From a virus, in the IMG/VR virus record IMGVR_UViG_3300012985_000003: 54,437 nt of DNA; one strand, 5' to 3'. Shown one piece after another: positions 32,668 to 54,437 of the stretch (position 1 is its first letter; the number at the start of each line of letters is the position of its first letter). Made by a program: the position numbers and the translations under genes. The notes beneath the pieces were generated by a model, which was not told where the DNA came from, did not search any database, and saw nothing but the letters and a program-made list of their open reading frames with translations.

Positions 32668-33003
32668 TCATCCCACCGGTTCGTCCGGCTTCTCCTGAAT
32701 GGAGAACTCGCTCTGCATGGCGTCGATGATCATCGCCATGATGATCTCCAGCTCAGGCCGGTTCGCCTCCGTCCAGTCGCTGAGCTCGAGCGGCATCGTG
32801 TCGCCGTAGGTCAGCGCCACCCGCTCCCACAGCCGGGTCTCCACCGGCCACCCCGACTCCGGGTCGAGCAGCGCCGGGAAGCGTGTGGGCTCGGTCTCTC
32901 GCCCCGGGAACGGCGTGAACGTGCCGTCCTTGTACACGCCGTAGGGGCTGGGCACCCGGACCTCGGGCGGCAGCGCCTCGCGGGCGTCATCGAGCCAGCT
33001 CAC
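32668..33003 (-). CDS. Hypothetical protein (111 aa)
   Basis: GTGA overlap with the prim-pol stop, and a real-looking C-terminal sequence in the track ORF. Confidence 0.7.
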   Translation of the reverse strand: MSWLDDAREALPPEVRVPSPYGVYKDGTFTPFPGRETEPTRFPALLDPESGWPVETRLWERVALTYGDTMPLELSDWTEANRPELEIIMAMIIDAMQSEFSIQEKPDEPVG

Positions 33004-33869
33004 GGCTGACGCTCGATGTTGCGGACGATCCGCTCGATCTCGTCCTGGTCGAGCGAGATCTCCGCGCCCCGGCGCTCGATCTCCTTCTGCCAGTCGGCGA
33101 CGCCGGCGAGGCGCAGCTTGTTGCCGATGGCGAAGAGGGTCGTGTTCCGGGTTCCCGGCTTGATGGGCTTGTCGAGCTCCATGATGAGTGCGTGCTGTGC
33201 CATGAGCATCTCCGTTTCGTCGAGTGTAGTGATCTTCCGAACCGCGTCCTGGGTGGCCGCGATCCGCTGCTTCTTCTCCTTCAGGCGCTGGCCCAGCCAG
33301 TCCGGCAGCTCGGACAGCTGGCGGTCGTTCCAGCGCTGCTGCGGCCAGTGGTAGACACAGCCCACGGCGCGGATGTCCACGCCCTGCACGATGCCGATCT
33401 GATCCGCGTACTCGCCGAAGCCCTCGTCGGTCCACGACTCCCCCGTCAGGTAGAACAGGTGGTAGCCGTTGCCGCTCTTGCTGACTTCCGCTCGCGTGGC
33501 CGGCAGGCGCCCGAGCTCGGATGCGTGCTCGAACCCGCCGTTCTTCCCGTCGATGTCGACGCACACGAGGCGTGCGCTCCGCATCACGAGAGCGAGACCG
33601 TGCTTGCCCTTGGAGTAGCCGTACATGGCTCTCCGCAGGCCGAACACTTTGTTCTCGTAGTTCTCGATGAAGCCGGGCATGGGGTCTCCGCCCGGCAACG
33701 TGGTCGGAGCGAGACCCCACCCGTTCTGGGTGGACCCGCTCGGGTAGGCACGCACGAGTGCGGGCCCGTGGTCTCCCCAGAGATCCAGCGTACCGTTCTG
33801 GTCGAGGATCTCCGTGAAGCCTTCGATGTCGTAGGTGTCAGTCCTCCACCACGGCAGTTTCGTCGCCAT
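33000..33869 (-). CDS. Bifunctional DNA primase-polymerase (prim-pol) with a PriCT-like C-terminus
   Basis: Motifs VCVDIDGKNGG and SGNGYHLFY, with C-terminal NTTLFAIGNKLRLAG. Confidence 0.8.
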   Translation of the reverse strand: MATKLPWWRTDTYDIEGFTEILDQNGTLDLWGDHGPALVRAYPSGSTQNGWGLAPTTLPGGDPMPGFIENYENKVFGLRRAMYGYSKGKHGLALVMRSARLVCVDIDGKNGGFEHASELGRLPATRAEVSKSGNGYHLFYLTGESWTDEGFGEYADQIGIVQGVDIRAVGCVYHWPQQRWNDRQLSELPDWLGQRLKEKKQRIAATQDAVRKITTLDETEMLMAQHALIMELDKPIKPGTRNTTLFAIGNKLRLAGVADWQKEIERRGAEISLDQDEIERIVRNIERQP

Positions 33870-35226
33870 CAGTACCTCCTGTGATCTGTTCGATTGCGAT
33901 CAAGGTCTCCGGGCGATAGCCTCCCAGGACCTTGCGATTCTTGACTTTGCCGTTCTCCCGCTTTGCCTTCCACTTGACGTTGAAGCTCTGCCGCACGAGG
34001 GCGAGCAGGTCTCCGTCGCTGCGCTCGGGCAGTCCCTGGGTCTGCGCCCACGGCTTGAACGAGTTGAGGAACTTGTCGAGCTCGAAGTCCACGTCTCCGA
34101 TGCGATCCAGCAGCTTCGGGTCCGTCTGGTACAGGCTCTCCAGGAACTGCAGGATCGGAGAGTTGATCCACACCTGGTCGTACTGCATCTCCGTGCTCTT
34201 CTTCGTCGGTGCCAGCTTGATTGCCAGCTCCTTCTCCTGGACGAAGTGGTCCAGGAGCAGCGAGAGCAGCGCGCCCACCATCGTCTCTCCCGTCATGCGG
34301 GAGTGGAACGCCGGGTTCATCGGATACACGTTCGGGAACGAGTACCGGATGAGTCGCTTCTGGAGGGCGGGACTCTTGTCTCGCGCCTTGGGCTCGAAGT
34401 TCAGACCCTCGATGAAGAGCGCGTTGGTCTGCACTCGGGTCGTCCCGCTCTCGTAGAGCATGCGAACCCAGAGCGGCTCGCCGGCGATGAGTGTCTTCTC
34501 GGCCGACGAGTCCTTGATGTAGCCCATCTCCCCGTCGAAGATGATGTTGAGCAGCTTGTTGTTGAGCTCGACGCAGGTCGGGCTCCGCTCTGCCATCGCC
34601 TGCCGACTGATGCTGCTGATGTTCCCGTCGCCGAAGAGCTCCGTGAGCATCGCCAGCAGCACGCCCTTGCCGTTGCGGCCCTCGCCGATGAGCAGGACGT
34701 ACTTGACGGCGCTCCACCCCGGCGCGAGCGCCGTGGCGAGGTGGTGCAGCAGCGAGTGTGCCTCGTCCTCGCTCCCGCCCAGCCACTCGACGATGGTCTT
34801 CCAGACCTCCTCCTTGTCGGAGGGATCCTCGTTGAGCGTGGGCCCGAGGAAGTTCGGGCTGAACGACCCATCGTGGTCGATCAGCTGGCCGACAGCGTTG
34901 ATGGTCTTGAGGCCCGCGTCGGTACGGATGAGCAGCGCGCCGCTGCCTCTCCCGTGCTTGGCGAACTGCTTGAGCATGAACTCGAACGACCGGGCCTCGC
35001 CGTCGTTCGCGAACAGGACGTTGAACTGGTCGTTCGCGAGCTCGAGGAGCTCGTGTCGATTGAGGGGGATCCAGATCGCCTCGCCCACGGCGGGCGGAGG
35101 ATCCATCTCCATGTTGAACCACCCTACCGGGACGTATAGCGTCCCGTTTTGATGGACGAGCTCGAAGCCCTCGGCCATGCTGCGCGCGGCCTGGGCCAGC
35201 TCCTTCTTGTCTTTGAGATCAGGCAT
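33838..35226 (-). CDS. SF3 helicase of the D5/P4 primase-helicase type
   Basis: Walker A LLIGEGRNGKGVLLAMLTELFG and the overall P4-family C-terminal domain pattern. Confidence 0.8.
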   Translation of the reverse strand: MPDLKDKKELAQAARSMAEGFELVHQNGTLYVPVGWFNMEMDPPPAVGEAIWIPLNRHELLELANDQFNVLFANDGEARSFEFMLKQFAKHGRGSGALLIRTDAGLKTINAVGQLIDHDGSFSPNFLGPTLNEDPSDKEEVWKTIVEWLGGSEDEAHSLLHHLATALAPGWSAVKYVLLIGEGRNGKGVLLAMLTELFGDGNISSISRQAMAERSPTCVELNNKLLNIIFDGEMGYIKDSSAEKTLIAGEPLWVRMLYESGTTRVQTNALFIEGLNFEPKARDKSPALQKRLIRYSFPNVYPMNPAFHSRMTGETMVGALLSLLLDHFVQEKELAIKLAPTKKSTEMQYDQVWINSPILQFLESLYQTDPKLLDRIGDVDFELDKFLNSFKPWAQTQGLPERSDGDLLALVRQSFNVKWKAKRENGKVKNRKVLGGYRPETLIAIEQITGGTDGDETAVVED

Positions 35227-38719: not shown

Positions 38720-40861
38720 TCACTTGATATAGCGGTGCGCGCTCTTGATCTCGGCCGTGAGCGGGAAGCCCTCCATCCACTCGGGGACGGAGGACATGGC
38801 GGACTCCATGTGGCTCATGGTCCTGGACTTCGAGTACGTCACGCCGAATCGGAGCTTGTCCTCGAACGGCTGCGGCTGCCACTCCACCACGATCTCGTCG
38901 TGGAACTGCCCGATGAGCTTCACGTTCTCTGCTGGGCGGAGGATGTTGCTCAGCTTCTGGAGTGAGTAGAAGAACAGCTCCCGGCACAGGCTCTGCGTCA
39001 GGATGCCCGCGAGCTTCCCTCCGTAGATCGAGTAGTACACCGTGCGCTTGGTCTTCGGATCGAAGTACCGGTCCTTCCACAGGTCACCCGTCTTCCGATT
39101 GCTCGGCTTGAAGTAGACGACCTGATTGCCCCGCTCGTAGACGCCGTGGAAGACCCGAGTCAACGCTCGAGCTCCCGTGTCCGGGTGGAGCAGCGACATC
39201 TCGAGCGATTGAGCTCCGGGGTGCTGAGTGGCCAGGGACTCCGGCGTCCTGGTCTTGTGAAAGACCAGCGAGAGACCGTGAGCGAGGGGCACCGTCGTCG
39301 ACGGGCTCGTTGAGGCGATCGCCTCGTGGAGACCCGTGTCGATGGCGTACCACATCGTCACGATGTTCGGGTTGGCGTCGCGCCACTGCTGAACGCGCTG
39401 CTGCGCGCCCTGCAGCGTCACCTCGAACCCGAGCTTGTGCATGAAGTCCTTCACGGCTTGACCGCCGGCCTGGTAGCCACAGCTCAACTCGCTGTACTTA
39501 CCCTCAGCCCGCGCTTCCTTCGTGACCTCATCATACTCAATCCCCTGGAACTTGGCAGCCAGCACCTTGTAGATGTCCTTGCCCTGCCGGTACGCGTCGA
39601 TCTTGTACTCCTCGCCGGCGATCCACGCCAGCCCTCGGCTCTCCACCGACGAGAAGTCTCCGACGATCTCTTCGCCGTCGGGGGCTTCGGCCACGAACAC
39701 CTGGCGCAGCTGCTCCGCCATCTCCTCGTTGGTCATGCCCATGACGTGCTCCTCCACGTCCTCGAGCTCGTCGAAGGGAACGATGTCACTCGAGAGTCGC
39801 TTGAGGTTCTGGAGCTGGGCGCCCCGGGCGCTGGTGCGGTATGTCTGTCCCGCTCCGACGTGCATGTACTGGTTGCGCAGCCGACCGTCCGCCCCGACCG
39901 TGTTCAGGATCACGTCGAGCTTCTTGAGGCTGGCACCTCCGAGCTGCTGCTTGACGTCCAGCAGAAACAGGACCTCCGAGTACTGCCCGAACTTCGGGTC
40001 GTCGCTCTCCATCGTGCTGAGCTTGGCCGTGATCTTCTCGATCATCGAGGAGACGTGGTCCTCATCGAAGCTCGGGGATCGAACCCCCCGCTCCGCACAC
40101 CACGCCTTCATCTGCGGGGTGCTGTTGAAGAACGTATCCTTCACGTCGAACTTCTGCCGGAAGCTCTCCACGAGATCCTGAGTGTTGGCCAGGTACTGCG
40201 CCTTCATCAGCCGAACCAGTGGCAGGTCGACGAACCACCCGTTCTGATTCATCTCGGCAGTCAGCTTCTCGTACGCGATCTCGACCCGCGTCGACTGGTG
40301 AGTCTCGTAGCGGGCTTGGATCCGCAGCCCTGCGGCGGCGTCGATGTTGCAGTACTCGATGAAGGTCTTCCACTGAGACGCTCGGTCTGCGTCGCCCATG
40401 ATGAGCCCCGGAGTCGGGGCCTTGCCCTTGTTCCACTCGTTCGGGACCGAGAAGACACTGATCAGCTGGTGGCCGGCATCCAGCTTCTCCATGTTCGTGA
40501 GCTGCGGGGCCGCAGCTTCCAGGTGGTTGCCCGCACCCTGCGCGCGAGCCGTGACGGCCGCGTCGACCACGAGGTCGATCGCTTCGTGACGGACACCCAT
40601 CTTGTCGAGCACCGCCCGCTCGAAGCCTGCATTGAAGGCGACGATGGGAAGCTTCCACTCGACGTGGCTCTCGATTTCCCTGCGAAACGCGTTCTCTGCC
40701 TCCCGGCCGCCGAGGATGAAATCGTAGTTGCGAGGGGCAAACCCCTCTGTCGCGACGCTCGCCATGAGTGGGCGAAACGACGGGTGATTGACGTACCGGT
40801 CGAGGCCGTGGACCTTGAGGTTCACGTCCCCGTAGGTCTCGAAGTCGAGTCCTCCAGCCAT
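38720..40861 (-). CDS. Family A DNA polymerase with a 3'-5' exonuclease domain
   Basis: LDFETYG (Exo I), DFSSVESRGLAWIAGEE (motif A), RAEGKYSELSCGYQAG (motif B) and QFHDEIVVEW (motif C). Confidence 0.9.
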   Translation of the reverse strand: MAGGLDFETYGDVNLKVHGLDRYVNHPSFRPLMASVATEGFAPRNYDFILGGREAENAFRREIESHVEWKLPIVAFNAGFERAVLDKMGVRHEAIDLVVDAAVTARAQGAGNHLEAAAPQLTNMEKLDAGHQLISVFSVPNEWNKGKAPTPGLIMGDADRASQWKTFIEYCNIDAAAGLRIQARYETHQSTRVEIAYEKLTAEMNQNGWFVDLPLVRLMKAQYLANTQDLVESFRQKFDVKDTFFNSTPQMKAWCAERGVRSPSFDEDHVSSMIEKITAKLSTMESDDPKFGQYSEVLFLLDVKQQLGGASLKKLDVILNTVGADGRLRNQYMHVGAGQTYRTSARGAQLQNLKRLSSDIVPFDELEDVEEHVMGMTNEEMAEQLRQVFVAEAPDGEEIVGDFSSVESRGLAWIAGEEYKIDAYRQGKDIYKVLAAKFQGIEYDEVTKEARAEGKYSELSCGYQAGGQAVKDFMHKLGFEVTLQGAQQRVQQWRDANPNIVTMWYAIDTGLHEAIASTSPSTTVPLAHGLSLVFHKTRTPESLATQHPGAQSLEMSLLHPDTGARALTRVFHGVYERGNQVVYFKPSNRKTGDLWKDRYFDPKTKRTVYYSIYGGKLAGILTQSLCRELFFYSLQKLSNILRPAENVKLIGQFHDEIVVEWQPQPFEDKLRFGVTYSKSRTMSHMESAMSSVPEWMEGFPLTAEIKSAHRYIK

Positions 40862-45033: not shown

Positions 45034-45039
45034 ACAGGG

Positions 45040-45477: not shown

Positions 45478-45615
45478 GTTGTCTCCTTGTTGTGAGTGAT
45501 GAGGTGATCATCCCGGACACCCCACTACCTATTGTAGCGGGGGCCTCCGACGTTGGGATAGCGTTCTCGTGTCGGGTGTTACTACGATTTTCAGTTGTGA
45601 CTGGAGTGACAGCAG

Positions 45616-45948
45616 TTACGCTTGGTACGTCTCCCCCGGCGTGGGCCAGACCTCCTCGCCCACACGATTCTTCCAATGGACGACCTTGGTGAGTGGCCCG
45701 GGGAGGGGTGACACTCCAGCGTGGTGTTGCTCTCGCCACAGCGAGGTGCCGGGTGTGTAGCCCCAACACGTCGCGCACCAGCTCCCGTTGCCGTGCTGGC
45801 ACCCGTAGATGCCCGTCGCCCAGATGTTGTTGCGCTCCTCGAGCTCGTCCCACGCCCACGGACCCTCGGTGGGGAGGAGGATCGGCTCGGCGAGCCAGCC
45901 GTTCTCCCACGCGCAGAGCCACAGGCGTGCTAGCGACTCAGCCGCCAT
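45616..45948 (-). CDS. Hypothetical Trp/Cys-rich protein (110 aa)
   Basis: ATG after GAGAGGAG. Confidence 0.7.
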   Translation of the reverse strand: MAAESLARLWLCAWENGWLAEPILLPTEGPWAWDELEERNNIWATGIYGCQHGNGSWCATCWGYTPGTSLWREQHHAGVSPLPGPLTKVVHWKNRVGEEVWPTPGETYQA

Positions 45949-45963
45949 AGAAACTCCTCTCTC

Positions 45964-46254
45964 TCAGTCCATCCCCGCTTGAGTCTCCGAGAGCATCCAA
46001 TGTATCCGGGCGTTCTCTCGAATGGCGTCGTCGGTGAGCTTGAACGAGTGCTCCATGCCATCGACGTGGACCCACCACGCGACGCCCTCTCGATCCCACG
46101 ACTGGTAGTAGACGATCTCCGAGTACTCTTCGGCCACCAATCGCGGGGAGACGCGGAAGACGATGGTGTAGCCTCGATCCTGGTATTCCTTTTGATACTC
46201 GTAGATCGTGCGCAGGTAGCCCAGCTCAGTCGCCCTCCTCCAGAGCCAAGGCAA
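45964..46254 (-). CDS. Hypothetical protein (96 aa)
   Basis: Only the C-terminal part of the track ORF looks coding. TTG 46254 follows GAGGAGGGAG. Confidence 0.6.
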   Translation of the reverse strand: MPWLWRRATELGYLRTIYEYQKEYQDRGYTIVFRVSPRLVAEEYSEIVYYQSWDREGVAWWVHVDGMEHSFKLTDDAIRENARIHWMLSETQAGMD

Positions 46255-46465
46255 CTCCCTCCTCGAACTCTGCGAGCTTTCGCCTGGTCTCGGCGAGGAG
46301 GTCCTGGTACTGCTGACCGCGCTCCTCGATGGGGGAGTCATTGATGGCGTAGCTATTCCTGCGCACTCTGAATTGGTAGTAGAGCCAGTAGAGGCGCTGA
46401 TCCCTCCCGATGGTGAGGAGCCAGCCCTTGCCGTCGTCGTCGAGGATGGCGTCGAAGCGACCTCT
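46226..46465 (-). CDS. Coding-looking segment (79 codons) with no start codon, in frame with the upstream ORF and separated from it by TGA
   Basis: High GC3 and a natural peptide FDAILDDDGKGWLLTIGRDQRLYWLYYQF. The first canonical start, a GTG, is 34 codons in. Confidence 0.4.
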   Translation of the reverse strand, partial: RGRFDAILDDDGKGWLLTIGRDQRLYWLYYQFRVRRNSYAINDSPIEERGQQYQDLLAETRRKLAEFEEGVALALEEGD

Positions 46466-46654
46466 TCAGGCGTACCCGGGCTGCGGCGTGACAAAGCCCT
46501 TCTCCTTCGCTCGCCGCATCAGCTCCGCAGCAGAGGGCTGGGTCGCCCTGTTGTAGTCGGCCACGGCCTGAGCCGTGTCTCGCAGCTCGAGCTCTGCGCA
46601 GTCGCAGCGAGCGTCGTCTTCGAGACGAGCGGGGCAGTCGTCGTGGTGAGTCAT
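46466..46654 (-). CDS. Hypothetical protein (62 aa)
   Basis: ATG after GGAAGGAGGAAG. The sequence is MTHHDDCPARLEDDARCDC... Confidence 0.65.
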   Translation of the reverse strand: MTHHDDCPARLEDDARCDCAELELRDTAQAVADYNRATQPSAAELMRRAKEKGFVTPQPGYA

Positions 46655-46824
46655 CGCTTCCTCCTTCCGAGAAGCATCTGGATCCACCACGGATCCGGCG
46701 TCGGGAGGACGCTGGGCAGCTCACGACGATTGGCGACGTGAGCGTCGGCCGGCATGCTCAGGGGCGTGGCGACCTTGACCGACCCCGTACGCAGGCCCGG
46801 CTCGAATGGTGGTGCCGAAGTCAC
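46651..46824 (-). CDS. Small hypothetical protein (57 aa)
   Basis: It fills a 166-nt gap. GTGA overlap upstream and ATGA overlap downstream. It is below the track cutoff. Confidence 0.5.
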   Translation of the reverse strand: MTSAPPFEPGLRTGSVKVATPLSMPADAHVANRRELPSVLPTPDPWWIQMLLGRRKR

Positions 46825-47399
46825 GGCTTTCCTCCTAACAGTTCGAGCAGCGCCAGCACTTGCCAGCTCTGCATCTCGCTCATCTTGTTCTCGGAGACGC
46901 GAAGCGTCTTCATCTCCTGGTACTTCTTGTGTGCTCCCGTCCTGTGCATGTCGTCGAGTCGAGCCAGCGCCCAGATGGTGACCGTCTCGAGACCGACCGT
47001 AGAGATGTCGACCTGGCCGACGCGCCCCTTGAAGGGCGAGTACGCGCCCAGCTGTTGGATGGTCTCGAGCTCCTTCTCGGTAACGATGGTCCCCCGCTCA
47101 CCCCCAGTCAGAGCGATCGGGTCGTCCTCGAGATCCTTCAGGAGCTTCTCGACGACGGGGTTGGCCGGCTTCGGAAGAGCTCCGGCGCCGGCGCTGTCGA
47201 ACTCGCCTCCAGTCCACCAGGTGGGCTTCGTCGAATTCTTGCCCGACTGTCGGGGGATCCCGTTCGTGGACATGTTCATGATCGGGGACTGGATCTTCAG
47301 CTGGTCGGCGATCGCCTGCTGGAAGGAGGTCGTCCCCCAGAGTGGACGCGGGTCCTCTACGTCTTCCGGGAGCGGGAACTTGTCGTCGTCCTCGTTCAC
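46821..47399 (-). CDS. Hypothetical protein (192 aa)
   Basis: GTGA-coupled start with natural-looking sequence. Confidence 0.75.
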   Translation of the reverse strand: MNEDDDKFPLPEDVEDPRPLWGTTSFQQAIADQLKIQSPIMNMSTNGIPRQSGKNSTKPTWWTGGEFDSAGAGALPKPANPVVEKLLKDLEDDPIALTGGERGTIVTEKELETIQQLGAYSPFKGRVGQVDISTVGLETVTIWALARLDDMHRTGAHKKYQEMKTLRVSENKMSEMQSWQVLALLELLGGKP

Positions 47400-48196
47400 T
47401 CGAGAGCCTCCATCACGAGATCGAGGCTGTCCATGAACGGGATCTCCCGCCCGACCTCGACGAGCTTGGCGGTCTCGTCGTCCTCGATGTGGTCAGCGAT
47501 CGTGTTGTAGATCGTGCCGAGCGTCTGCTTCTCGACCTGGTCTCGATCGAGCAGGTAGAGCGCAGCCTCCCGGTAGCCCGTGAGCAGGTCGTCCTTGACG
47601 AGCGACATGTCCCACCCGTACTCGGCGTACTTGGCGTAGCGCCCCGCCTCCCGCAGCCCCTGGTACTGGCTGATGAAGCCGTTGCGCCAGTCGTCTCGCC
47701 GCAGCGGGAGCAGCGGCAAGGCGTCGTGGACACTCTGGCTCGGGAAGAAGTACGGGCGCATGTCTCGCCAGGCCTGGTCCTGGCAGTCGTAGCCGACGGC
47801 GAGCAGGCCGAAGTCGAAGGACTCGAGGACCTGACTCAGGCTGCTGACCGGGCGCTTGTTGACGACCTTGTAGACGAGGTTCGCCTCCAGGCCGTCGGGG
47901 CCGGTGAGCTTCAGGCTGTTGGTGTGCCAGCCGCTGAAGCCCTGCTTGAGCCAGCGCTGGTAGAGGCGCTGGTGACGATCGTGAACGACGAATCCCCCCT
48001 GAATCAGTCGCTCTGCAGCGCTGATGAGTGCGTACTCTGTCGCACAGAAGCCGTCCACGTCGTCGAACGCGTAGTCGAGGCGCTTGAGACCCGAACGCGC
48101 TGCGGCAGCGGAGCTCCCGGCGATGAACACCGGGAGCCCCGCCAGCGGAGCGGCGAACAGATCCACAGCCTCGAAGGCCGGGATCTGCACGCTCAC
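47396..48196 (-). CDS. Hypothetical protein, possibly a pol-beta-fold nucleotidyltransferase
   Basis: IAGSSAAAARSGLKRLDYAFDDVDGF resembles hG[GS]-x(n)-DxD, and a later FDFGLLAV could supply the third acidic residue. This is a weak by-eye call. Confidence 0.6.
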   Translation of the reverse strand: MSVQIPAFEAVDLFAAPLAGLPVFIAGSSAAAARSGLKRLDYAFDDVDGFCATEYALISAAERLIQGGFVVHDRHQRLYQRWLKQGFSGWHTNSLKLTGPDGLEANLVYKVVNKRPVSSLSQVLESFDFGLLAVGYDCQDQAWRDMRPYFFPSQSVHDALPLLPLRRDDWRNGFISQYQGLREAGRYAKYAEYGWDMSLVKDDLLTGYREAALYLLDRDQVEKQTLGTIYNTIADHIEDDETAKLVEVGREIPFMDSLDLVMEALE

Positions 48197-48528
48197 TCCT
48201 TCGAGTCGTTCTGGACGTCGAGCGTGCTGGCCTGCTCGCCACCCTCCAGGGCGGCGGCGTACTGCACGGCCTCGCTGGGCTCGACCGTGAGGGAGTCGAG
48301 CTCGGCCTGCAGCGTGTTGACGCGGGCCTGGCTCTTCTCGAGCTGGCGCTGGGCCGCCTCGAGCTCCTCACGGACGGTCTCGGCTCGCTTGGCGCGCCGG
48401 GCCTTGTCCTTCTCGATGGCCTCGAGGAGCGCCTGCTGCGCGCGCTCGACGGGGCTGAGACGAGTGGTGCTCGTCTGCGTGGGCTTCTCGGCCGTGGCCT
48501 TCGTCGCCTTCTTGCTGGCTTCCGCCAT
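48193..48528 (-). CDS. Hypothetical Lys/Ala/Thr-rich coiled-coil protein (111 aa)
   Basis: ATG after GAAGGAGAAG. The N-terminus is AEASKKATKATAEKPT. Confidence 0.7.
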   Translation of the reverse strand: MAEASKKATKATAEKPTQTSTTRLSPVERAQQALLEAIEKDKARRAKRAETVREELEAAQRQLEKSQARVNTLQAELDSLTVEPSEAVQYAAALEGGEQASTLDVQNDSKE

Positions 48529-48580
48529 GATCTTCTCCTTCGTGTCGCTAGTTTCCTGGAGTCGCGCCACGGGTGTGGCG

Positions 48581-48622
48581 CCTCGACCCCGGCCACTGCT
48601 AGCTCAGCAGCCGGGGTCGAGG
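48581..48622. repeat. Perfect 12-bp inverted repeat (cctcgaccccgg / ccggggtcgagg) with an 18-nt loop
   Basis: Read directly. It spans the stop codon of the 48604 ORF, and a second hairpin (gcgccac gggt gtggcgc) abuts it at 48564-48581. Confidence 0.7.
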
Positions 48623-48777
48623 GTCTGACGGGATAGCTCGAGCAGCGGGATGCGGTCGACCAGAGTCGACAGCACCCACTGCTCGAGCTCCCACAGGATC
48701 GGGTCGTCCCGGCACGAGGCGCAGCACCAGTCATCGAGGTCGATGGGCTCGAAGATGGTGCGCCAGCCGAGAGACAC
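48604..48777 (-). CDS. Small Cys-containing protein (57 aa)
   Basis: GTG overlaps the upstream TAG. GC3 is high. The sequence includes DDWCCASCRDD. Confidence 0.5.
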   Translation of the reverse strand: MSLGWRTIFEPIDLDDWCCASCRDDPILWELEQWVLSTLVDRIPLLELSRQTLDPGC

Positions 48778-48899
48778 TAGTCCTGGTCCTCGTCGATGAG
48801 GCCCATGAGTGCCACGGCGACGATGATCACGACGCCGGGGATGACCCCGACGAGGGTGCCGATGACGGCGAGGGCGATGAGGACGCTGGCGTCATCCAT
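48777..48899 (-). CDS. Small membrane protein (40 aa)
   Basis: ATG overlaps the upstream stop. The sequence is VLIALAVIGTLVGVIPGVVIIVAVALMGL. Confidence 0.55.
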   Translation of the reverse strand: MDDASVLIALAVIGTLVGVIPGVVIIVAVALMGLIDEDQD

Positions 48900-49137
48900 C
48901 GATCCACTCCTTCTCTCGGATCCAGTGCTCGAGACCGAGGCTCACGAGCATGCCGTTCCACTGCAGAGCGCCCCAGAAGAAGAACGTTACGCAGAGGAAC
49001 AGGATCAGCAGGCCGACGCCCACCGCGACGAGGTCGCCGTCGGAGAAGCCGCCGATGAGGACTACGCCTCCGATGATCATTCCGACGAGGAGCACGACCA
49101 TGCCGGCGCCCACGGCTGCGACCAAGAGCTCAGCCAT
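48892..49137 (-). CDS. Membrane protein (81 aa, about 3 TM)
   Basis: ATGGCTGA overlap with the upstream gene, with strongly hydrophobic sequence. Confidence 0.7.
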   Translation of the reverse strand: MAELLVAAVGAGMVVLLVGMIIGGVVLIGGFSDGDLVAVGVGLLILFLCVTFFFWGALQWNGMLVSLGLEHWIREKEWIDG

Positions 49138-49477
49138 TGGGACACCAGTCCTCGTGGTCGCCGTCGAGCGAGCCGCACGGGCAGAGCACCGCCGCGTCCC
49201 TGACGGGGCGCTGCAGCCGGACGTCGTCGCCGCGCTCCAGCAGGCGAACCGCACGCTGGCGGACCGTCGAGTAGTACGTGCGCTGCAGTCGCAGCGCCCG
49301 CTCCACGCCGGTCAGGGACTCGTTCAGGAGCACGTTGTCCTCCCACTCCTCCCACGGCAGGGAGTTGCGAGCGGCGCCGGCCTCGAGCGTGATGGCCTGC
49401 TTCTCGGCGCCGATCTCGCTCATGTGCCTCGAGAACTCGGCGCGATCCTCGGCGCTCATGGATCGGTAGTCGGTCAC
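49130..49477 (-). CDS. Hypothetical protein (115 aa), possibly DNA-binding
   Basis: GTGA-coupled start. The segment PWEEWEDNVLLNESLTGVERALRLQRTYYSTVRQRAVRL is helical. Confidence 0.65.
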   Translation of the reverse strand: MTDYRSMSAEDRAEFSRHMSEIGAEKQAITLEAGAARNSLPWEEWEDNVLLNESLTGVERALRLQRTYYSTVRQRAVRLLERGDDVRLQRPVRDAAVLCPCGSLDGDHEDWCPNG

Positions 49478-49574
49478 AGCGACACCGCCCACAGGACGGC
49501 GAAGGCCGTGAAGCCCGTCGCGAGGCAGCCCATCACGAGACCGAGCCAGAAGTGGCGGTTGCCGTGACGGATCA
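49473..49574 (-). CDS. Small membrane protein (33 aa)
   Basis: ATG after GGAGGAAGAG. The sequence is FWLGLVMGCLATGFTAFAVLWAV. Confidence 0.55.
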
Positions 49575-49595
49575 TCTCTTCCTCCGTGTAGCCGT

Positions 49596-49913
49596 TCACT
49601 CGAAGTCGTCCTCACTGACGATGTCGCCGAAGCGAGCGATGATGCCGGAGACGAGCTCGTTGCAGGCGGTGACGCCGAGCTGGTCGTTGATGATGTCGCC
49701 GAGCTTCGGCATGAACGTCGTGGATGCGGCCTCGAAGCCGCCGACGTAGACCGTGACCCGGTAGAGGTTGGAGCGGATCTGCTGAATCCAGATGCTGATC
49801 CGGTGCCCGTTGACTCGATGGAGCAACGGGAAGACGCCGTCCCGAGTGGGCTGGCTGGTGCGGATGTTGTGGTCGCGAAGCGCCTGACGAAGACGCGTGA
49901 GCTGAGTGGTCAT
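49596..49913 (-). CDS. Hypothetical protein (105 aa)
   Basis: ATG 49913 follows GGAGGA. The upstream part of the track ORF looks non-coding. Confidence 0.75.
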   Translation of the reverse strand: MTTQLTRLRQALRDHNIRTSQPTRDGVFPLLHRVNGHRISIWIQQIRSNLYRVTVYVGGFEAASTTFMPKLGDIINDQLGVTACNELVSGIIARFGDIVSEDDFE

Positions 49914-49938
49914 GAGTATCTGTCCTCCAGTAGAGATT

Positions 49939-50163
49939 CTACCGTCGACGCAGGGCGCGCCGACGAGATTCGATGAACCAGATGCGCTCCTGCTGAACGC
50001 GGATGGCAGCCCAGGTCTGCCGCAGTTCATCCCGAATGGATTGGGTCGCAGCACCGAAACGGTGATCCGACTCGATCTTCTTCAGTTCACGGTACTGCTT
50101 CTTCGCCAGAGCCGTGAACTCCTTCAATGCCTTCCTTGCCTCCCTCTCTTGTGTCTCTAACAC
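49939..50163 (-). CDS. Small basic coiled-coil protein (74 aa)
   Basis: GTG 50163 follows GAAGGGAAAGGA. This is the first ORF downstream of the repeat array. Confidence 0.55.
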   Translation of the reverse strand: MLETQEREARKALKEFTALAKKQYRELKKIESDHRFGAATQSIRDELRQTWAAIRVQQERIWFIESRRRALRRR

Positions 50164-50270
50164 AATTCCTTTCCCTTCTCTCTCCCAAAAATAGGTTCCC
50201 ACCTATGGAGGCTAGCCAGCCGAAGGCCCTCGCCAGGGCCCACGCAAGCCTGCTCAAGTGACGGAGAAGA

Positions 50271-50495
50271 CGTAACGAAAAACGTAACGAATCCCCAAAC
50301 GTAACGAGTCGTTACGCCTCTAACTCGTCGAGTTACGAGGCGTAACGAGTCACGTAACGGGCACGTAACGAGCAGCGTAACGAGTCGCCTTCCCATGCGA
50401 GACATGACGTAACGAGCGTAACGAGTTTTCCATCCCAAAAGTTGGGATGGGATGAGTAGAGAAAGTTTGAGGTGGCGACTCGTTACGTCGTTACG
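50271..50495. repeat. Iteron-like array: 12 copies of CGTAACGA (consensus aCGTAACGAGt) in both orientations
   Basis: Forward copies start at 50271, 50283, 50300, 50341, 50353 (variant ..GG), 50364, 50376, 50408 and 50417. Inverted copies start at 50309, 50480 and 50488. Spacing is mostly 11-12 bp. Confidence 0.85.
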
Positions 50496-50792
50496 CCACG
50501 GCAGAGCCGTGTCGGCGAGGGCAAAGAGGCGGCCACACGTGGCCGGCGTCTCGGACGAAACAAAGAACACACAGACCGTAGCTGAACGCTGCGGATAGAC
50601 AGGTCCTGGCGGACCTTGTGTAGATAACGATCATCAGCCTAGAAACAGTCATCCACGCACATCCCGCTAGTTGGATGCCGGTCGCTCAGTAGCCTGAGCG
50701 CAAGCGTCACGCGACTAGCGGTAGCTAGTGAGGTCTGTGGTTGAGTTTACCGACTATGTGCATGAGATGACAAAAAAGAGGCTGATGACGTT

Positions 50793-50822
50793 AGAAAAAC
50801 AGAGAGGTCCCGATTGGGACCT
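50793..50822 (-). terminator. Rho-independent terminator after the first leftward gene
   Basis: Stem aggtccc / gggacct with loop gatt, followed on the minus strand by ctctgttttt. Confidence 0.7.
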
Positions 50823-50846
50823 GACTGTTTAGGCAGTAGCGAGATG

Positions 50847-51107
50847 CTACTTGATACCCGCGAGGCGGTTGAGCTGACGCTCGTAGAACGCGATGAGTGT
50901 CGCGTTGGCAGTCCGAGATTCGGGTGTTGCCCGAAGCTCAGCCAGCTTGTTGCCGATGTTCTCGACCTTGACGAGCATGTCGTCCGTGACTTCCATGATC
51001 ATCTTGTCGAGGATGGCGTTCTGTGCCTCAGTGACCTTGGGGTCCTGAAGCATGCGGGTGACCTGGGCGTCGAGCAACGGCTGGAGATTGAGCTGAAATG
51101 CGGACAT
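50847..51107 (-). CDS. First leftward (early) gene, hypothetical 86-aa helical protein
   Basis: ATG 51107 follows AAAGGAA. The AT-rich 5' extension of the track ORF looks non-coding. Confidence 0.7.
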   Translation of the reverse strand: MSAFQLNLQPLLDAQVTRMLQDPKVTEAQNAILDKMIMEVTDDMLVKVENIGNKLAELRATPESRTANATLIAFYERQLNRLAGIK

Positions 51108-51124
51108 GGTGACGAAGTTCCTTT

Positions 51125-51290
51125 GGCTAGATTGACTTGATCCAAAAATTGATACTTGATTCACTTGATACTATCGATTCAATGATTTATATGACTGACC
51201 TATACCCATACATATACATGTATAGGGGGGTATAGATGTGTGTTATTTGTTTCTATTGTATTAATGGATCTCCACAGAAAAAGTTCCCGC
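51125..51290. promoter_or_regulatory. AT-rich divergent control region with repeats and a composite palindrome
   Basis: It shows a sharp GC drop. ACTTGAT occurs three times (51135, 51154, 51163). An imperfect palindrome spans 51200-51235 around ATACATGTAT. Confidence 0.5.
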
Positions 51291-51490
51291 TTTCCTGAGA
51301 ACCATCGGCACCTTCTCAACTCTCGTAACGGTTTTCCCCGGGGATTCCGCCCCGACTCCGGATCGTCACCCGTGTTTCCCGGGTAGAGGCCCGTGCCCGG
51401 CGGTCCCGGGCCGAGTTCCCCGGGAGCGAGGGTCGCCCTCGGCCGGGGATCGGGGCTCCCTCCGGCGGCGAGTGTGCCGAGGTGGGGCGC

Positions 51491-51518
51491 GCGAAACCCG
51501 CCAGGGACGGGCTATAAT
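51491..51518 (+). promoter_or_regulatory. Promoter-like motif GCGAAA-N16-TATAAT upstream of the giant gene
   Basis: An exact TATAAT lies 43 nt before ATG 51561. It has the same GCGAAACC box as the site at 27197 and is bracketed by an 8-bp inverted repeat. Confidence 0.45.
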
Positions 51519-51560: not shown

Positions 51561-54437
51561 ATGGCCGGCTGGCGCGAATCCCGGTTTGCTACTGAGGCGC
51601 CGGTCGCGGCCCCCGTCGGAGCCCAGCAGCAGTCGGTCACCCAGGATGAGACGCGCGCCGCCGGCGGCTGGCAGGGCAGCCGGTTCGCCCTGGAGGCGGC
51701 GCCCCGGCTCCCGAAGTGGCAGAGCGGCGGCCAGGTCGGCTCCACGGAGAACGGCTGGAACACGCCCTTCTACCAAAAGATGTTCGACCAGCGCAACGCG
51801 CGGCTGGACGCCGGCACGATCGGCGACTGGTACTCGAGCGAGGACTTCACCGGCGTCGCGACGTGGGAGGGCCAGAAGGCCGCCGACGGGCGAGACATCC
51901 GCCTCGGCGACGTGTACGAGGACGGCACCTACCGGGGCAACCTGCTGGACCCGAAGAGCGGCTACGACGAGGCCACCGGCTACCAGATGCTCGCGCAGCT
52001 GAGCCTCAGCGCGGACGAGCAGAAGCACGCGTACGAGCGGCTCCGCTCGAACCCCCTCGCGGTCAAGGAGGCGGTCGACGCCCGCGCGGCGGAGGACACG
52101 CGCAACGTCGCGGCGGCCCAGGGCAGCAAGGCCTACCAGAGCGAGATCGACCAGCAGAAGAGCGAGTGGGACGACGCCGTCGAGGGCACCCTGGCGATCG
52201 CCGCCGGTGCCGTGGGCGGCGCGGCGCTCGGCATCTTCGGAGGCCCGATCGGCATCGCAGCCGGTGCCGTGGTCGGTGGCGTGGCGGCGGCGGCCAACAA
52301 GGACTTCCTGGTCGACCAGGCGGCGCGGGCCACCGTGCAGACGGGCATGGCCGCGGAGCAGTTCGGCCCGGCGGGCGGCCTGAGCACGGGCCTGCAGCAG
52401 TGGGGCGGCGCGGCGCTGAGCGCCTTCACCCCCCTCTCCAACCTGACGCAGGGTATCACGGACCTCGCCAACGGCGGCTGGGACGACTCGAGCGCCTACT
52501 ACGACATGGGCGCCGAGCGGCCCTGGTGGCTCACGGGCCTCGGGATCACGGCGACCCTCGGCGACTCGCTCCTGCAGTTCGCCAGCCCCGTCGGCCAGGC
52601 CGCGTTCAAGACGGCGATGGGCGCGACCGTGGCCGGCGGCGCGGGGCAGCTCGCCTTCCAGGGAGGCGCGCGGTTCGACGACCGCATCGGCAACTTCGAC
52701 GCGCCGGACGACCCGGGCCAGTGGCTCGCCGCCATCGGCGCGGTGGGTATGGACGTCGTCCAGCTCGCCGGGGCTCGAGGCATCGCCCGTGCCGTCACCA
52801 GCGCAGACCGCGCGGCGCTCGGTACGGTCGACGACGCGAGCCGGCTCAGCCTGTTCAACCGCACGATGCCGGAGGGCGCCGTCCGCACCGAGCGCATCGG
52901 TGGCAAGCAGTTCTACCTGGACGAGGCGGGCCAGGTCGTCGGCACCCCGCGCACCACGATGACGATGCTCGCCCCGAGCGAGGCGACGATGTGGGCCAGC
53001 GCGAAGCTGCAGACCCAGATCATGCGGGCGCAGCACGGCGGCGCGATCAGCCCTCAGCAGGCGAACCAGCTGCTGTACCAGGCGGCGAAGGACATCGAGG
53101 GCGGCACGAACCTCGCGAAGACGGCGCTCGTGAACGCGTTCGGCGAGGGTCTCGAGGAGGCGACCCAGTCGGTGCTCGAGCCCCTGAGCCACGGCTGGAC
53201 CCCCGACGGCAACGACGTCATCATGAGCTACCTGCAGGGCGCCGCCGCCGGCGCGGGCATGAGCGTCGGCGCCCGGGTCGGGAGCTACTCCGCCAACGAG
53301 CGGGGCTACCTGCGGAGCCAGCAGATCGCCAAGCTGAACAACGTCACCCCGCCGACCCGCGAGCAGTGGGACAGCTGGACGCCGGAGCAGAAGCGCCAGG
53401 CGACCGCCGCCCCGCCCCTCGTCTCGATGGGGCTCCGCGAGGCCGGCGAGCGCGCGGCGCGCGAGCAGGTGATGGAGGCCGTCAAGTTCGACGTGGGTCT
53501 CGAGAAGAGCCTGGACGCCGCCCTGCTGACGCAGGACAAGGAGATGCGGAGCCTGAACCCGGCCCTGGAGGGCACGTTCACGCTCGGCTCGCTGCAGTCC
53601 AGCGACATCCCCAACCACGTCGTGCTGAGCGACTTCGACTCCGTCGTGAACCTGCTCCAGAGCAACGCCGACTCCGTGCGCGACCAGATCGCCCAGCGCA
53701 ACCCGGCGCCGCAGCTCGAGCCCATCGCGGAGGCTCAGGCGATGGTCCTGGAGCAGATGCACCGGCTGCAGCGGGAGTTCGTGTCGGCGACTCCGGAGCG
53801 CCAGGCCCAGATCGTGCGCGACGCGAACGAGGTCATCCAGGTCGCGTGGGACTCGGTCGTCCAGGAGGGCGACGTCATCACCGGCAGCCCGTACGCGAAG
53901 GCCGTCGGCGTGCTGCTCAGCCGCTCCCCGAACAACAGCGCAGGCTCGTTCCAGATGCTGATGCCGCAGGTCTCCCTGCAGGACACGCTCGACGGCGGGC
54001 AGGGCCTGCTGAAGGTCAGCCACGCGATCCTGAAGATGATCGACGGCGACTTCGACGGCGACATGGTGCGCCAGCACGTCCAGGTCGCGATCGAGATCGA
54101 GGACGACGCGTACCGCGCGCTGCGGCTCGGCCTGAACGCGCTCGGCATGCGCGACGGCTCCGTCAAGATCGGCACCCGCGACACCGAGGAGTTCATCATC
54201 GACCGCCTCGGGCTGGCGGCGAAGGGTGGCGTCGGCAGCAAGAGCGCCGAGGCGACCCTCCGGGTGATGAGCGCCTGGCTGAAGACGAACCTCGCGACCG
54301 TCCCCAACATCGACACCATCGTCGACGAGACGATCGACGAGCTCCGCCGCGGCGTCGTGGACGCCAAGCAGAACCTGTTCCAGAAGCTGAACACGCAGGC
54401 GTCCGACGAGGTGATCCGCCTCGGCGAGCGCGGCAAC
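51561..54437 (+). CDS. Giant protein, N-terminal 959 codons (runs off the window end and continues at nt 1/124); contains RNAP-like double-psi-barrel motifs
   Basis: ATG 51561 lies 6 nt after GGAG. The frame has no stop to the window end and is in frame with nt 1. A glycine-zipper hydrophobic pair lies at about 52185-52296, a beta-like motif at 52893-52982 and a beta-prime-like motif at 53922-54143. Confidence 0.85.
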   Translation, partial: MAGWRESRFATEAPVAAPVGAQQQSVTQDETRAAGGWQGSRFALEAAPRLPKWQSGGQVGSTENGWNTPFYQKMFDQRNARLDAGTIGDWYSSEDFTGVATWEGQKAADGRDIRLGDVYEDGTYRGNLLDPKSGYDEATGYQMLAQLSLSADEQKHAYERLRSNPLAVKEAVDARAAEDTRNVAAAQGSKAYQSEIDQQKSEWDDAVEGTLAIAAGAVGGAALGIFGGPIGIAAGAVVGGVAAAANKDFLVDQAARATVQTGMAAEQFGPAGGLSTGLQQWGGAALSAFTPLSNLTQGITDLANGGWDDSSAYYDMGAERPWWLTGLGITATLGDSLLQFASPVGQAAFKTAMGATVAGGAGQLAFQGGARFDDRIGNFDAPDDPGQWLAAIGAVGMDVVQLAGARGIARAVTSADRAALGTVDDASRLSLFNRTMPEGAVRTERIGGKQFYLDEAGQVVGTPRTTMTMLAPSEATMWASAKLQTQIMRAQHGGAISPQQANQLLYQAAKDIEGGTNLAKTALVNAFGEGLEEATQSVLEPLSHGWTPDGNDVIMSYLQGAAAGAGMSVGARVGSYSANERGYLRSQQIAKLNNVTPPTREQWDSWTPEQKRQATAAPPLVSMGLREAGERAAREQVMEAVKFDVGLEKSLDAALLTQDKEMRSLNPALEGTFTLGSLQSSDIPNHVVLSDFDSVVNLLQSNADSVRDQIAQRNPAPQLEPIAEAQAMVLEQMHRLQREFVSATPERQAQIVRDANEVIQVAWDSVVQEGDVITGSPYAKAVGVLLSRSPNNSAGSFQMLMPQVSLQDTLDGGQGLLKVSHAILKMIDGDFDGDMVRQHVQVAIEIEDDAYRALRLGLNALGMRDGSVKIGTRDTEEFIIDRLGLAAKGGVGSKSAEATLRVMSAWLKTNLATVPNIDTIVDETIDELRRGVVDAKQNLFQKLNTQASDEVIRLGERGN
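54315..54437. repeat. Second copy of the 123-bp terminal overlap
   Basis: Identical to nt 1-123. Confidence 0.9.

What the first reader, a model, noticed from the sequence alone, without database searches (positions are those of the whole stretch)
50271..50495. Dense iteron-like array of an 8-mer (CGTAACGA), 12 copies in 225 bp plus one outlier
There are nine forward and three inverted copies, many phased at 11-12 bp, about one helical turn. One pair forms a perfect 17-bp palindrome (cgtaacgagtcgttacg, 50300-50316). Another pair is held inside a gtggcg...cgccac stem (50472-50499). A 9-bp-stem hairpin ccatcccaa/ttgggatgg sits at 50430-50450. A further copy (cgtaacgg) lies at 51324-51331, near the rightward promoter region. 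The array is non-coding. It lies between the terminator of the first early gene and the next early ORF. That placement fits a replication origin, a multi-site operator or antitermination switch, or a packaging recognition site.
Basis: seen in the sequence. Interest (0 to 1): 0.7.

Follow-up and report, generated by a model that had tools for sequence, protein, structure and literature searches.

The report
Likely phage replication origin (iteron array)
This dense cluster of a repeated 8-letter DNA word is real and is found, with a different word in each lineage, in every related phage examined; it is most likely the site where the phage's own helicase binds to start copying the genome, a known kind of origin not previously marked in this phage group.

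Summary
CGTAACGA occurs 11 times exactly, plus one CGTAACGG, and all copies lie in 50271-50495. Only 0.76 copies are expected in the whole window.

The window is a complete, circularly permuted genome of a Burro/EK-like actinobacterial podovirus. All 25 or so relatives that I could reach have an array at the same position. The repeated word differs by lineage: CGTAACGA, AGGTAACG, CGTAACC, GGTGACTAC, GGTGTCTAC or TGGAAGAAC.

The layout is shared. Two tight doublets, 8-9 bp apart, point in opposite directions across a 43-73 bp spacer of lower GC.

This matches the anatomy described for origins of staphylococcal pathogenicity islands (SaPI). There, a winged helix at the C-terminus of an SF3 "self-loading" helicase reads the repeats.

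The window encodes such a helicase at 33838-35226. Its best structural match is SaPI5 PriRep5, and its C-terminus has winged-helix topology. Among 12 conserved protein families in 20 genomes, that C-terminal domain tracks the repeat word far better than anything else.

Best reading: an iteron-type replication origin (confidence about 0.62). Binding and origin firing are inferred, not shown. Rival readings are a multi-site operator and a packaging (pac) site. It is a new member of a known kind, of moderate interest.

The parts
50271..50316 (.). Iteron cluster I. It holds three forward copies of CGTAACGA (50271, 50283, 50300) and one inverted copy (50309). The last pair forms the 17-bp palindrome at 50300-50316.
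50341..50383 (.). Iteron cluster II. It holds four forward copies at 50341, 50353 (CGTAACGG), 50364 and 50376, spaced 12, 11 and 12 bp apart, which puts them on one face of the helix.
50392..50406 (.). Auxiliary imperfect palindrome CCCATGCGAGACATG. It is conserved in sequence across lineages whose iteron words differ: Burro, Arete, L006, and four copies in Akoni.
50408..50424 (+). Left core doublet: two forward copies 9 bp apart.
50425..50479 (.). Central spacer, the proposed unwinding region. Its GC is 0.47 against 0.66 for the genome, which puts it in the lowest 1% of 55-nt windows. It contains the hairpin at 50430-50450.
50480..50495 (-). Right core doublet: two inverted copies 8 bp apart. 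The doublet-spacer-inverted-doublet core is found in all lineages.
33838..35226 (-). SF3 (D5 / P4-alpha / SaPI-Rep type) helicase of 462 aa, the proposed initiator. The C-terminal winged-helix domain, about residues 341-451, is encoded by about 33874-34206.
33000..33869 (-). Prim-Pol (archaeo-eukaryotic type) primase, encoded next to the helicase.
38720..40861 (-). Family A DNA polymerase, part of the same replication module. It was used as the anchor to fetch related genomes.
50667..50718 (.). Highly conserved 52-nt element beside the array. It has a 7-bp hairpin (50683-50700) with a TAGC loop, invariant in all but two relatives (TATC in Burro and L008), and a conserved 3' tail, GCAAGCGTCACGCGACTAG. 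Its role is unknown; one possibility is a priming signal.
50805..50822 (-). Terminator-like hairpin followed by a T run, after the first leftward gene (50847-51107).
50185..50194 (-). Conserved box CCAAAAATAG, which reads TATTTT (-10-like) on the - strand. A 40-50 nt purine-rich leader follows, running to the next leftward ORF.
   Evidence: the promoter role is inferred

Best explanation
The array is the phage's origin of replication, of the iteron type.

Proposed mechanism: the winged-helix C-terminal domain of the phage SF3 helicase (33838-35226) recognises the 8-mer. Helicase hexamers assemble on the two inverted doublets (50408/50417 and 50480/50488). They open the lower-GC spacer between them (50425-50479). 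The adjacent Prim-Pol then primes synthesis and the family A polymerase extends.

The outer phased copies and the CCCATG..CATGG palindrome probably add cooperative or auxiliary binding.

Shown here: the repeats, their conservation and layout, the helicase fold, and the co-variation. Inferred: binding, melting and origin firing.
For: 1. The array is far beyond chance and is confined to one non-coding gap.

2. About 25 related genomes carry an array at the same position. These include the isolated phages Burro, Arete, MissAmericana and Akoni. The word is lineage-specific: CGTAACGA, GTAACGAA, tGTAACGAg, AGGTAACG, CGTAACC, GGTGACTAC, GGTGTCTAC or TGGAAGAAC.

3. Arete and Akoni infect the same host strain but use different words. 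The specificity factor is therefore encoded by the phage.

4. The core is universal: a doublet with 8-9 bp spacing, then a 43-73 bp spacer of GC 0.32-0.53, then an inverted doublet. Further copies often sit symmetrically 40-56 bp out. PMC9371898 describes SaPI origins in the same terms: 6-12 short iterons, an AT-rich centre, and at least two iterons on each side pointing in opposite directions, read by a winged helix in the Rep C-terminal domain.

5. The window's helicase matches SaPI5 PriRep5 by sequence (E 6e-11). It also matches by predicted structure: pLDDT 86.5, Foldseek E 5.6e-16, 426 aligned columns.

6. The C-terminus has the order H-b-H-H-b-b, with a basic wing (10 K/R in 38 residues). 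The C-terminal domain searched alone returns mostly winged helices (ORC1 WH, RFX DNA-binding domain), but none is significant.

7. Co-variation was tested in 20 genomes and 6 motif classes, after subtracting each pair's genome-wide identity. The helicase C-terminal domain has a within-minus-between excess of 0.110 (p = 0.0005). Its ATPase domain scores 0.008, and the best non-helicase family scores 0.027. In sliding windows over 13 families, the top windows are helicase residues 355-430.

8. The array sits 0.9 kb from the point where the two gene blocks diverge. Forks leaving it would therefore run in the same direction as transcription on both arms.
Against: - No binding or replication data exist for any member.
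- The array is 15 kb from the helicase gene, whereas SaPI origins lie immediately downstream of rep.
- The spacer is only moderately AT-rich (GC 0.47). The most AT-rich stretch lies 700 bp away, at 51081-51328.
- The co-variation rests on about 20 genomes that are not phylogenetically independent, and label shuffling ignores the tree.
- The fold search with the C-terminal domain alone gave no significant hit (best E 0.19).
- The array also lies about 75 bp upstream of a promoter-like box, so a regulatory role is not excluded and could coexist with an origin role.
Confidence: 0.62

Rival explanations
1. The array is a multi-site operator or enhancer. A phage DNA-binding protein coats it to switch the delayed-early leftward operon on or off. 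That operon starts just to the left of the array. The protein could also block read-through from the first gene.
For: - The array lies between a terminator and a conserved -10-like box with a purine-rich leader, just upstream of the next gene block.
- Short repeats in both orientations are typical of ribbon-helix-helix operators and centromeres such as omega, ParR and ParG (my own knowledge).
- The genome encodes an RHH protein and a weak HTH candidate at 49130-49477.
Against: - No copy overlaps the promoter-like box. The nearest copy is about 75 bp away, and hairpins intervene in relatives.
- The RHH protein was detectable in only some lineages, and the HTH candidate only in MissAmericana. 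The array, by contrast, is universal.
- The small early proteins next to the array are not conserved.
- The only conserved protein domain that tracks the word is the helicase C-terminal domain.
Confidence: 0.2
2. The array is a packaging recognition (pac) site for headful packaging. The small terminase subunit would wrap the repeats.
For: - Related isolated phages are reported as circularly permuted, which implies headful packaging (abstract for Birdfeeder; table legend).
- The window's giant gene runs across the window ends.
- Some pac sites are built from repeated short boxes, for example P1 and SPP1 (my own knowledge).
Against: - The array is in the early region, far from the late genes.
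- No terminase could be identified by Pfam, so it could not even be tested for linkage.
- The symmetric doublets around a lower-GC spacer, and the co-variation with a helicase domain, are not expected for pac.
Confidence: 0.07
3. The array is a binding site for a host protein, such as a response regulator or nucleoid protein, that the phage recruits.
For: The 11-12 bp phasing of GTAAC-type half-sites loosely resembles the direct repeats bound by OmpR/GlnR-type regulators (my own knowledge; not tested).
Against: - Phages that infect the same strain, M. foliorum NRRL B-24224, use different words: Arete AGGTAACG and Akoni CGTAACCA.
- Other lineages use unrelated words (GGTGACTAC, TGGAAGAAC).
Confidence: 0.04

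Closest known systems
SaPI replication origins with Rep / PriRep self-loading SF3 helicases (Staphylococcus aureus pathogenicity islands; PMC9371898)
   Same: - There are 6-12 short iterons.
- The centre is AT-richer, with at least two iterons on each side pointing in opposite directions.
- The initiator is an SF3 helicase with a C-terminal winged helix.
- PriRep5 is the best sequence match (E 6e-11) and the best structural match (E 5.6e-16) to the window's helicase.
- A separate or fused primase is encoded next to the helicase.
   Different: - The iterons here are 8-10 bp, not 5-6 bp.
- The array is 15 kb from the helicase gene, not immediately downstream of it.
- There are extra phased runs of copies, a second conserved palindrome and flanking conserved hairpins.
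- The primase is an AEP Prim-Pol.
- The element is a 54-kb lytic podovirus, not a satellite island.
Bacteriophage P4 ori/crr and the alpha protein
   Same: - The protein combines primase, SF3 helicase and a C-terminal winged-helix origin-binding domain (PMC2777425).
- From my own knowledge, P4 ori and crr carry multiple copies of an octamer (type I iterons) in both orientations. I could not check this in a paper held here.
   Different: - The P4 primase is DnaG-like and fused to the helicase; here Prim-Pol is a separate gene.
- P4 needs two separated cis sites (ori and crr); here a single array was found.
- There is no sequence similarity between the repeats.
Plasmid iteron origins (pPS10, R6K, RK2, P1 with RepA/pi/TrfA) and lambda ori/O protein
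   Same: Repeated initiator-binding sites lie next to an easily melted region, and iteron and initiator co-evolve.
   Different: - Those iterons are 17-22 bp direct repeats bound by dedicated Rep/O proteins, which then recruit a host helicase.
- No such Rep protein is encoded here.
- The repeats here are 8-mers in a symmetric layout.
RSF1010 oriV with ssiA/ssiB hairpins read by the RepB' primase
   Same: This is a possible analogy only. Iterons are flanked by conserved hairpins that could act as specific priming signals (my own knowledge).
   Different: - In RSF1010 the two ssi hairpins lie on opposite strands.
- Here all the (T)AGC-loop hairpins are on the same strand.
- No test was possible.

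Membership tests
SF3 self-loading-helicase origin (SaPI Rep / P4 alpha type) | There are multiple short repeated initiator sites (iterons) in a non-coding stretch. | tested here: met
   There are 12 copies in 225 bp, against 0.76 expected. Relatives carry 6-15 copies.
SF3 self-loading-helicase origin (SaPI Rep / P4 alpha type) | The centre is AT-richer, with at least two iterons on each side pointing in opposite directions. | tested here: met
   The window reads >9> then a 55-bp spacer (GC 0.47, lowest 1% of the genome) then <8<. The same core is present in all lineages. The AT-richness is only moderate.
SF3 self-loading-helicase origin (SaPI Rep / P4 alpha type) | The element encodes an SF3 helicase with a C-terminal winged-helix DNA-binding domain. 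| tested here: met
   - Pfam DUF5906.
- PDB sequence hit 7OLA.
- AlphaFold model with Foldseek best match PriRep5 over 426 columns.
- The C-terminal domain has winged-helix secondary-structure order.
- The fold search with that domain alone was not significant.
SF3 self-loading-helicase origin (SaPI Rep / P4 alpha type) | The helicase C-terminal domain binds its own iterons specifically. | not testable with these tools
   There is only indirect support: the C-terminal domain co-varies with the iteron word.
SF3 self-loading-helicase origin (SaPI Rep / P4 alpha type) | [quoted passage not shown] | tested here: not met
   The array is at 50.3 kb and the helicase gene at 33.8-35.2 kb. This is a positional habit of SaPIs rather than a mechanistic requirement.
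SF3 self-loading-helicase origin (SaPI Rep / P4 alpha type) | The region supports initiation of replication. | not testable with these tools
   No replication data exist. GC and AT skew are confounded by the switch in transcription direction.
Classical plasmid/lambda iteron origin | There are 17-22 bp direct repeats bound by a dedicated Rep/O initiator. | tested here: not met
   The repeat unit is 8-10 bp and occurs in both orientations. No Rep/O-like family was found in Pfam or PHROGs scans of the leftward genes.
RHH operator/centromere arrays (omega, ParR, ParG type) | A ribbon-helix-helix protein is present wherever the array is present. | tested here: not met
   A homologue of the window's RHH protein (37992-38183) was detected by BLAST only in L018, L020 and L022. 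Burro carries a separately annotated RHH gene, gp8. None was detected in MissAmericana, L017, L025 or the GTGACTAC lineages. Short, divergent RHH proteins could have been missed.
RHH operator/centromere arrays (omega, ParR, ParG type) | There is a partner partition ATPase (for the centromere reading). | tested here: not met
   No ParA/ParM-like family was found among the proteins scanned.
pac site of headful phages | The site lies in or beside the small terminase gene and is the start of the packaging series. | tested here: inconclusive
   No terminase was recognisable by Pfam. The array lies in the early region. Mapping the ends needs raw reads.
nut/put-type antitermination signal | The signal acts in the RNA of one strand. 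| tested here: not met
   The word occurs on both strands in a symmetric layout. It also lies downstream of a terminator.

The most novel reading that the evidence does not exclude
The 650-900 bp gap may be a composite origin in which hairpins, and not only iterons, carry information.

In most of the relatives scanned (about 12 of 17), 1-3 tandem hairpins lie to the left of the array. Their stems are freely variable (4-7 bp) but their loop is constant, AGCA or AGCC. To the right lies a highly conserved hairpin with a TAGC loop and a fixed 19-nt tail. All of these are on the same strand.

They could be structure-specific signals in single-stranded DNA read by the phage Prim-Pol, as RSF1010 ssi sites are read by RepB'. 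They could also be hairpin promoters or RNA protein-binding sites. Either way, helicase loading at the iterons would expose defined start points for synthesis.
Probability: 0.15. Interest if true: 0.7.

Novelty: new member of a known kind. Interest (0 to 1): 0.5.

Why it matters
The Burro/EK podoviruses of Microbacterium and Arthrobacter are known for a 13-kb gene, and about 70% of their genes have no assigned function. No origin, regulatory site or pac site has been marked in them.

A predicted origin with a named initiator domain gives three things:
- a directly testable replication model for isolated, culturable phages (Burro, Arete, Akoni, MissAmericana);
- a natural series of six or more matched pairs of iteron word and winged helix, useful for studying how SF3 self-loading helicases read DNA;
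- a candidate minimal replicon for building vectors in Microbacterium and Arthrobacter.

It also shows that the SaPI/P4 style of origin is used by large lytic actinophages, with the origin placed far from the helicase gene.

Tried and rejected
- tRNA and Rfam scans of the whole window found nothing.

- Megablast against phages found no close relative. Only a 40-nt conserved element matched, and it became the anchor for finding relatives.

- Pfam and PHROGs scans of the small early proteins beside the array gave no family, apart from a weak HTH hit for 49130-49477. These proteins are not conserved between lineages, so they are unlikely to be universal binders.

- The sigma-70 scan gave one promoter-like site (50773-50744, - strand). 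Its -35 hexamer overlaps the terminator's T run and it is not conserved in relatives, so I rejected it.

- Arrays found by k-mer counting in distant gut-phage loci (L141, L160) turned out to be coding low-complexity repeats and were discarded. L171 has a real non-coding CCGTAAC array but was not pursued.

- The fold search with the helicase C-terminal domain alone gave no significant hit.

- Two papers on SaPI origins (PMC1964853, PMC3804134) are not held. The SaPI anatomy is therefore cited from the introduction of PMC9371898.

- GC skew could not be used, because the strand asymmetry follows transcription direction.

- An N4-like reading, in which the giant virion protein acts as an RNA polymerase using hairpin promoters, was considered. 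It looks unlikely for the rightward genes, which carry a perfect TATAAT at 51513-51518.

Full report
**1. The observation**

CGTAACGA has 11 exact copies in the 54,437-base window. All lie in 50271-50495, against 0.76 expected, and none of 100 shuffles reached 11. A twelfth copy, CGTAACGG, is at 50353. Start-to-start spacings are 12, 17, 9, 32, 12, 11, 12, 32, 9, 63 and 8.

The outlier at 51324 is a one-mismatch match; about 36 such matches are expected per window, so it carries no weight. ORFs overlapping the array have third-position GC of 0.57-0.63, against 0.8-0.95 for real genes, so the stretch is non-coding.

**2. Context**

The window is a whole, circularly permuted genome. A 4,463-aa ORF starts at 51561, runs off the end of the window and continues to 10515 without a stop. 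Leftward genes fill 32060-51107, and rightward genes fill the rest.

The nearest isolated relatives have proteins 40-59% identical to the window's. They are:
- Microbacterium phages of the genus Burrovirus (Burro, Arete, Araxxi);
- Arthrobacter phage MissAmericana.

Cluster EK phages such as Akoni are more distant, with a polymerase 41-43% identical. The published description of Burro and cluster EK mentions the 13-kb gene but not this array.

The leftward block encodes a replication module:
- Prim-Pol (33000-33869);
- an SF3 helicase (33838-35226);
- an SF2 helicase;
- a family A polymerase (38720-40861);
- a PD-(D/E)XK nuclease;
- an AAA ATPase.

The array lies in a 645-bp gap. To its right are the first leftward gene (50847-51107) and that gene's terminator-like hairpin (50805-50822). 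To its left is the next leftward ORF.

**3. Conservation**

A 40-nt stretch beside the array (inside 50667-50718) is almost identical in phages that otherwise share no nucleotide similarity. I used it as a search pattern. I then used alignments of the polymerase to fetch +/-10 kb around that gene from metagenomes and IMG/VR. Together these gave about 25 related genomes or contigs.

Every one that includes the corresponding gap has an array there. The repeated word differs by lineage:

| Word | Found in |
|---|---|
| aCGTAACGAgt | window |
| cGTAACGAAa | L006 |
| tGTAACGAg | MissAmericana, L012, L041, L042 |
| AGGTAACG | Burro, Arete |
| cGTAACC(a/g) | Akoni, L127, L139 |
| gGTGACTACa | L007-L009, L031, L032, L039, L109, L120 |
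| GGTGTCTACa | L010, L034, L036, L115, L130, L138 |
| ctGGAAGAAc | L014/L044 |

Arete and Akoni were isolated on the same strain, M. foliorum NRRL B-24224, yet use different words. Whatever reads the word is therefore encoded by the phage, not the host.

**4. Shared layout**

All lineages have two copies 8-9 bp apart, then a spacer of 43-73 bp, then two copies in the opposite orientation. Further copies often lie symmetrically 40-56 bp further out. One example is <15>43<8<51>8>43<15>12> in L031, L010 and L138.

The spacers have GC of 0.32-0.53, below their surroundings (0.46-0.62) and well below the genomes (about 0.60-0.69). In the window the spacer is 50425-50479. Its GC is 0.47, in the lowest 1% of 55-nt windows.

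A second small palindrome, CCCATG(n)GAGACATGG, sits in the flanking gaps. Its sequence is conserved in lineages with different iteron words: the window (50392-50406), Burro, Arete, L006 and Akoni, which has four copies.

**5. What it resembles**

The introduction of PMC9371898 describes SaPI origins as follows. They have six to twelve penta- or hexanucleotide iterons and an AT-rich region at the centre. At least two iterons on each side point in opposite directions. A winged helix in the C-terminal domain of the Rep helicase recognises them. Rep is an SF3 helicase that loads itself, probably as one hexamer on each side.

P4 alpha and pRN1 ORF904 likewise carry a winged helix C-terminal to an SF3 helicase (PMC2777425).

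**6. The helicase**

The window's 462-aa helicase matches Pfam DUF5906. By profile search it matches the SaPI5 primase-helicase 7OLA (E 6e-11).

An AlphaFold model built from 55 homologues (pLDDT 86.5, pTM 0.80) has SaPI5 PriRep5 as its best PDB match. Foldseek gives E 5.6e-16 over 426 aligned columns, with TM 0.60/0.62. ASFV C962R, poxvirus D5/E5 and NrS-1 follow.

The C-terminal part has the canonical winged-helix order: H370-378, b381-382, H383-396, H404-414, b415-424, b427-437. The wing is basic, with 10 K/R in residues 403-440.

Searched alone, this domain gives no significant hit (best E 0.19). The list is nevertheless dominated by winged helices, including human ORC1 WH, the RFX DNA-binding domain (probability 0.84, rmsd 3.1 A over 65 columns), PadR, MarR-like proteins and RTP.

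**7. Co-variation**

I asked which conserved protein diverges in step with the repeat word.

In a first set of 13-15 genomes and 13 families, I measured within-class minus between-class identity, normalised to each pair's mean. The helicase gave 0.137. The next family gave 0.039. In 30-residue sliding windows over all families, the top windows were helicase residues 355-430. Their within-class identity was about 0.5 and their between-class identity 0.16-0.19.

In an extended set of 20 genomes and six classes, I subtracted each pair's genome-wide mean identity:

| Protein or domain | Excess | p |
|---|---|---|
| Helicase C-terminal domain | 0.110 | 0.0005 |
| Helicase N-terminal domain | 0.040 | 0.0005 |
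| Helicase ATPase domain | 0.008 | 0.22 |
| Best non-helicase family | 0.027 | 0.03 |

Class-specific residues lie in the third helix and the wing. For example, GWK(T/A) accompanies GTAACGA, DSKT accompanies AGGTAACG, and (E/D)RK(S/T) accompanies GTG(A/T)CTAC.

Genes lying between the helicase gene and the array, such as the polymerase, show no such signal. Simple linkage is therefore an unlikely cause.

There are caveats. The genomes are related to one another, label shuffling ignores the tree, and the sample is small.

**8. Rivals**

*Operator or enhancer.* The position suggests it: the array lies after a terminator and about 75 bp upstream of a conserved -10-like box (CCAAAAATAG on the + strand, 50185-50194) with a purine-rich leader. 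But no copy overlaps that box. The RHH protein (37992-38183) was detectable in only some lineages, and the HTH candidate (49130-49477) only in MissAmericana. The neighbouring early proteins are not conserved.

*pac site.* This cannot be excluded, because these phages package by the headful. However, the array is in the early region, no terminase could be recognised, and nothing about pac predicts co-variation with a helicase domain.

*Host factor.* Phages of the same host use different words, which argues against it.

*RNA-level switch.* The two-strand symmetric layout argues against it.

**9. Verdict**

The array is most likely the replication origin. Its iterons would be read by the winged-helix domain of the phage's SF3 helicase (confidence about 0.62).

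It works like a SaPI or P4 origin. It differs in four ways:
- the iterons are longer (8-10 bp);
- the array is 15 kb from the helicase gene;
- there are additional phased copies;
- there is a second conserved palindrome, and there are flanking conserved hairpins.

The kind is known and the instance is new: no origin has been proposed for this phage group in the literature I could search. Interest is moderate.

The least explained parts are the 52-nt element at 50667-50718 and the AGC-loop hairpins in relatives. The element's hairpin shows compensatory changes at three pairs. The hairpins are listed. These may hold something less ordinary.

Noticed in passing
window 50667-50718: This 52-nt element is far more conserved than the surrounding proteins: 97.5% identical to Arete over 40 nt, where no other DNA similarity exists. 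It holds a 7-bp hairpin (50683-50700) with a TAGC loop (TATC in Burro and L008), compensatory changes at three pairs across 13 relatives, and a fixed tail GCAAGCGTCACGCGACTAG. G-U-type pairs in the weaker outer helix fit the + strand better. There is no Rfam match and the function is unknown.
   Followed up: partly
L004 (Burro), L006, L012, L031, L041, L044, L127, L139 and others, just left of their arrays; window 50211-50222 (ggctAGCCagcc): Clusters of 1-3 tandem hairpins, 15-18 nt apart, have freely varying 4-7 bp stems but a constant AGCA or AGCC loop. All are on the same strand as the TAGC-loop hairpin of the conserved element. The window itself has only a weak copy. They look like a structure-specific signal in DNA or RNA.
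   Followed up: partly
window 50392-50406; Akoni (L126) has four copies: The imperfect palindrome CCCATG(n)GAGACATGG lies inside the array. Its sequence is conserved in lineages whose iteron words differ. The GTGACTAC and GTGTCTAC lineages instead have GCAGGTCAGAG / CTCTGACCTGC at the same place. It is probably a site for a second, more conserved factor.
   Followed up: no
window 50134-50194 and 51142-51151: The conserved box CCAAAAAT(A/T)G occurs twice, each time 40-60 nt upstream (in the leftward sense) of a start codon. The first is followed by a 40-50 nt tract that is pyrimidine-rich on the + strand and so gives a purine-rich leader. The same pattern is present in all relatives.
   Followed up: no
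window 51210-51235, 51275-51289, 51513-51518: The divergent intergenic region holds strongly conserved blocks (ACATATACATGTATAGGGGGGTATAG and CAGAAAAAGTTCCCG). It also holds a perfect TATAAT about 45 nt upstream of the giant gene's start. It is the most AT-rich part of the genome (51081-51328).
   Followed up: no
window 51561-54437 continuing into 1-10515: A single 4,463-aa ORF runs across the ends of the window, so the window is a circularly closed or permuted complete genome. It is the counterpart of the 13-kb gene of Burro and the EK phages.
   Followed up: yes
L171 1380-1800 (IMGVR_UViG_3300020577_006238, polymerase only 25% identical): A much more distant phage also has a non-coding array, CCGTAAC / CTCCGTAAC, in both orientations around a large inverted repeat. 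This suggests that the same kind of site is used beyond this family.
   Followed up: no
window 47396-48196, 45040-45477, 42898-43839, 32060-32587 (all - strand): Four proteins are conserved in all relatives (40-55% identity) but match no Pfam, PHROGs or PDB-sequence entry. They sit inside the replication block.
   Followed up: partly
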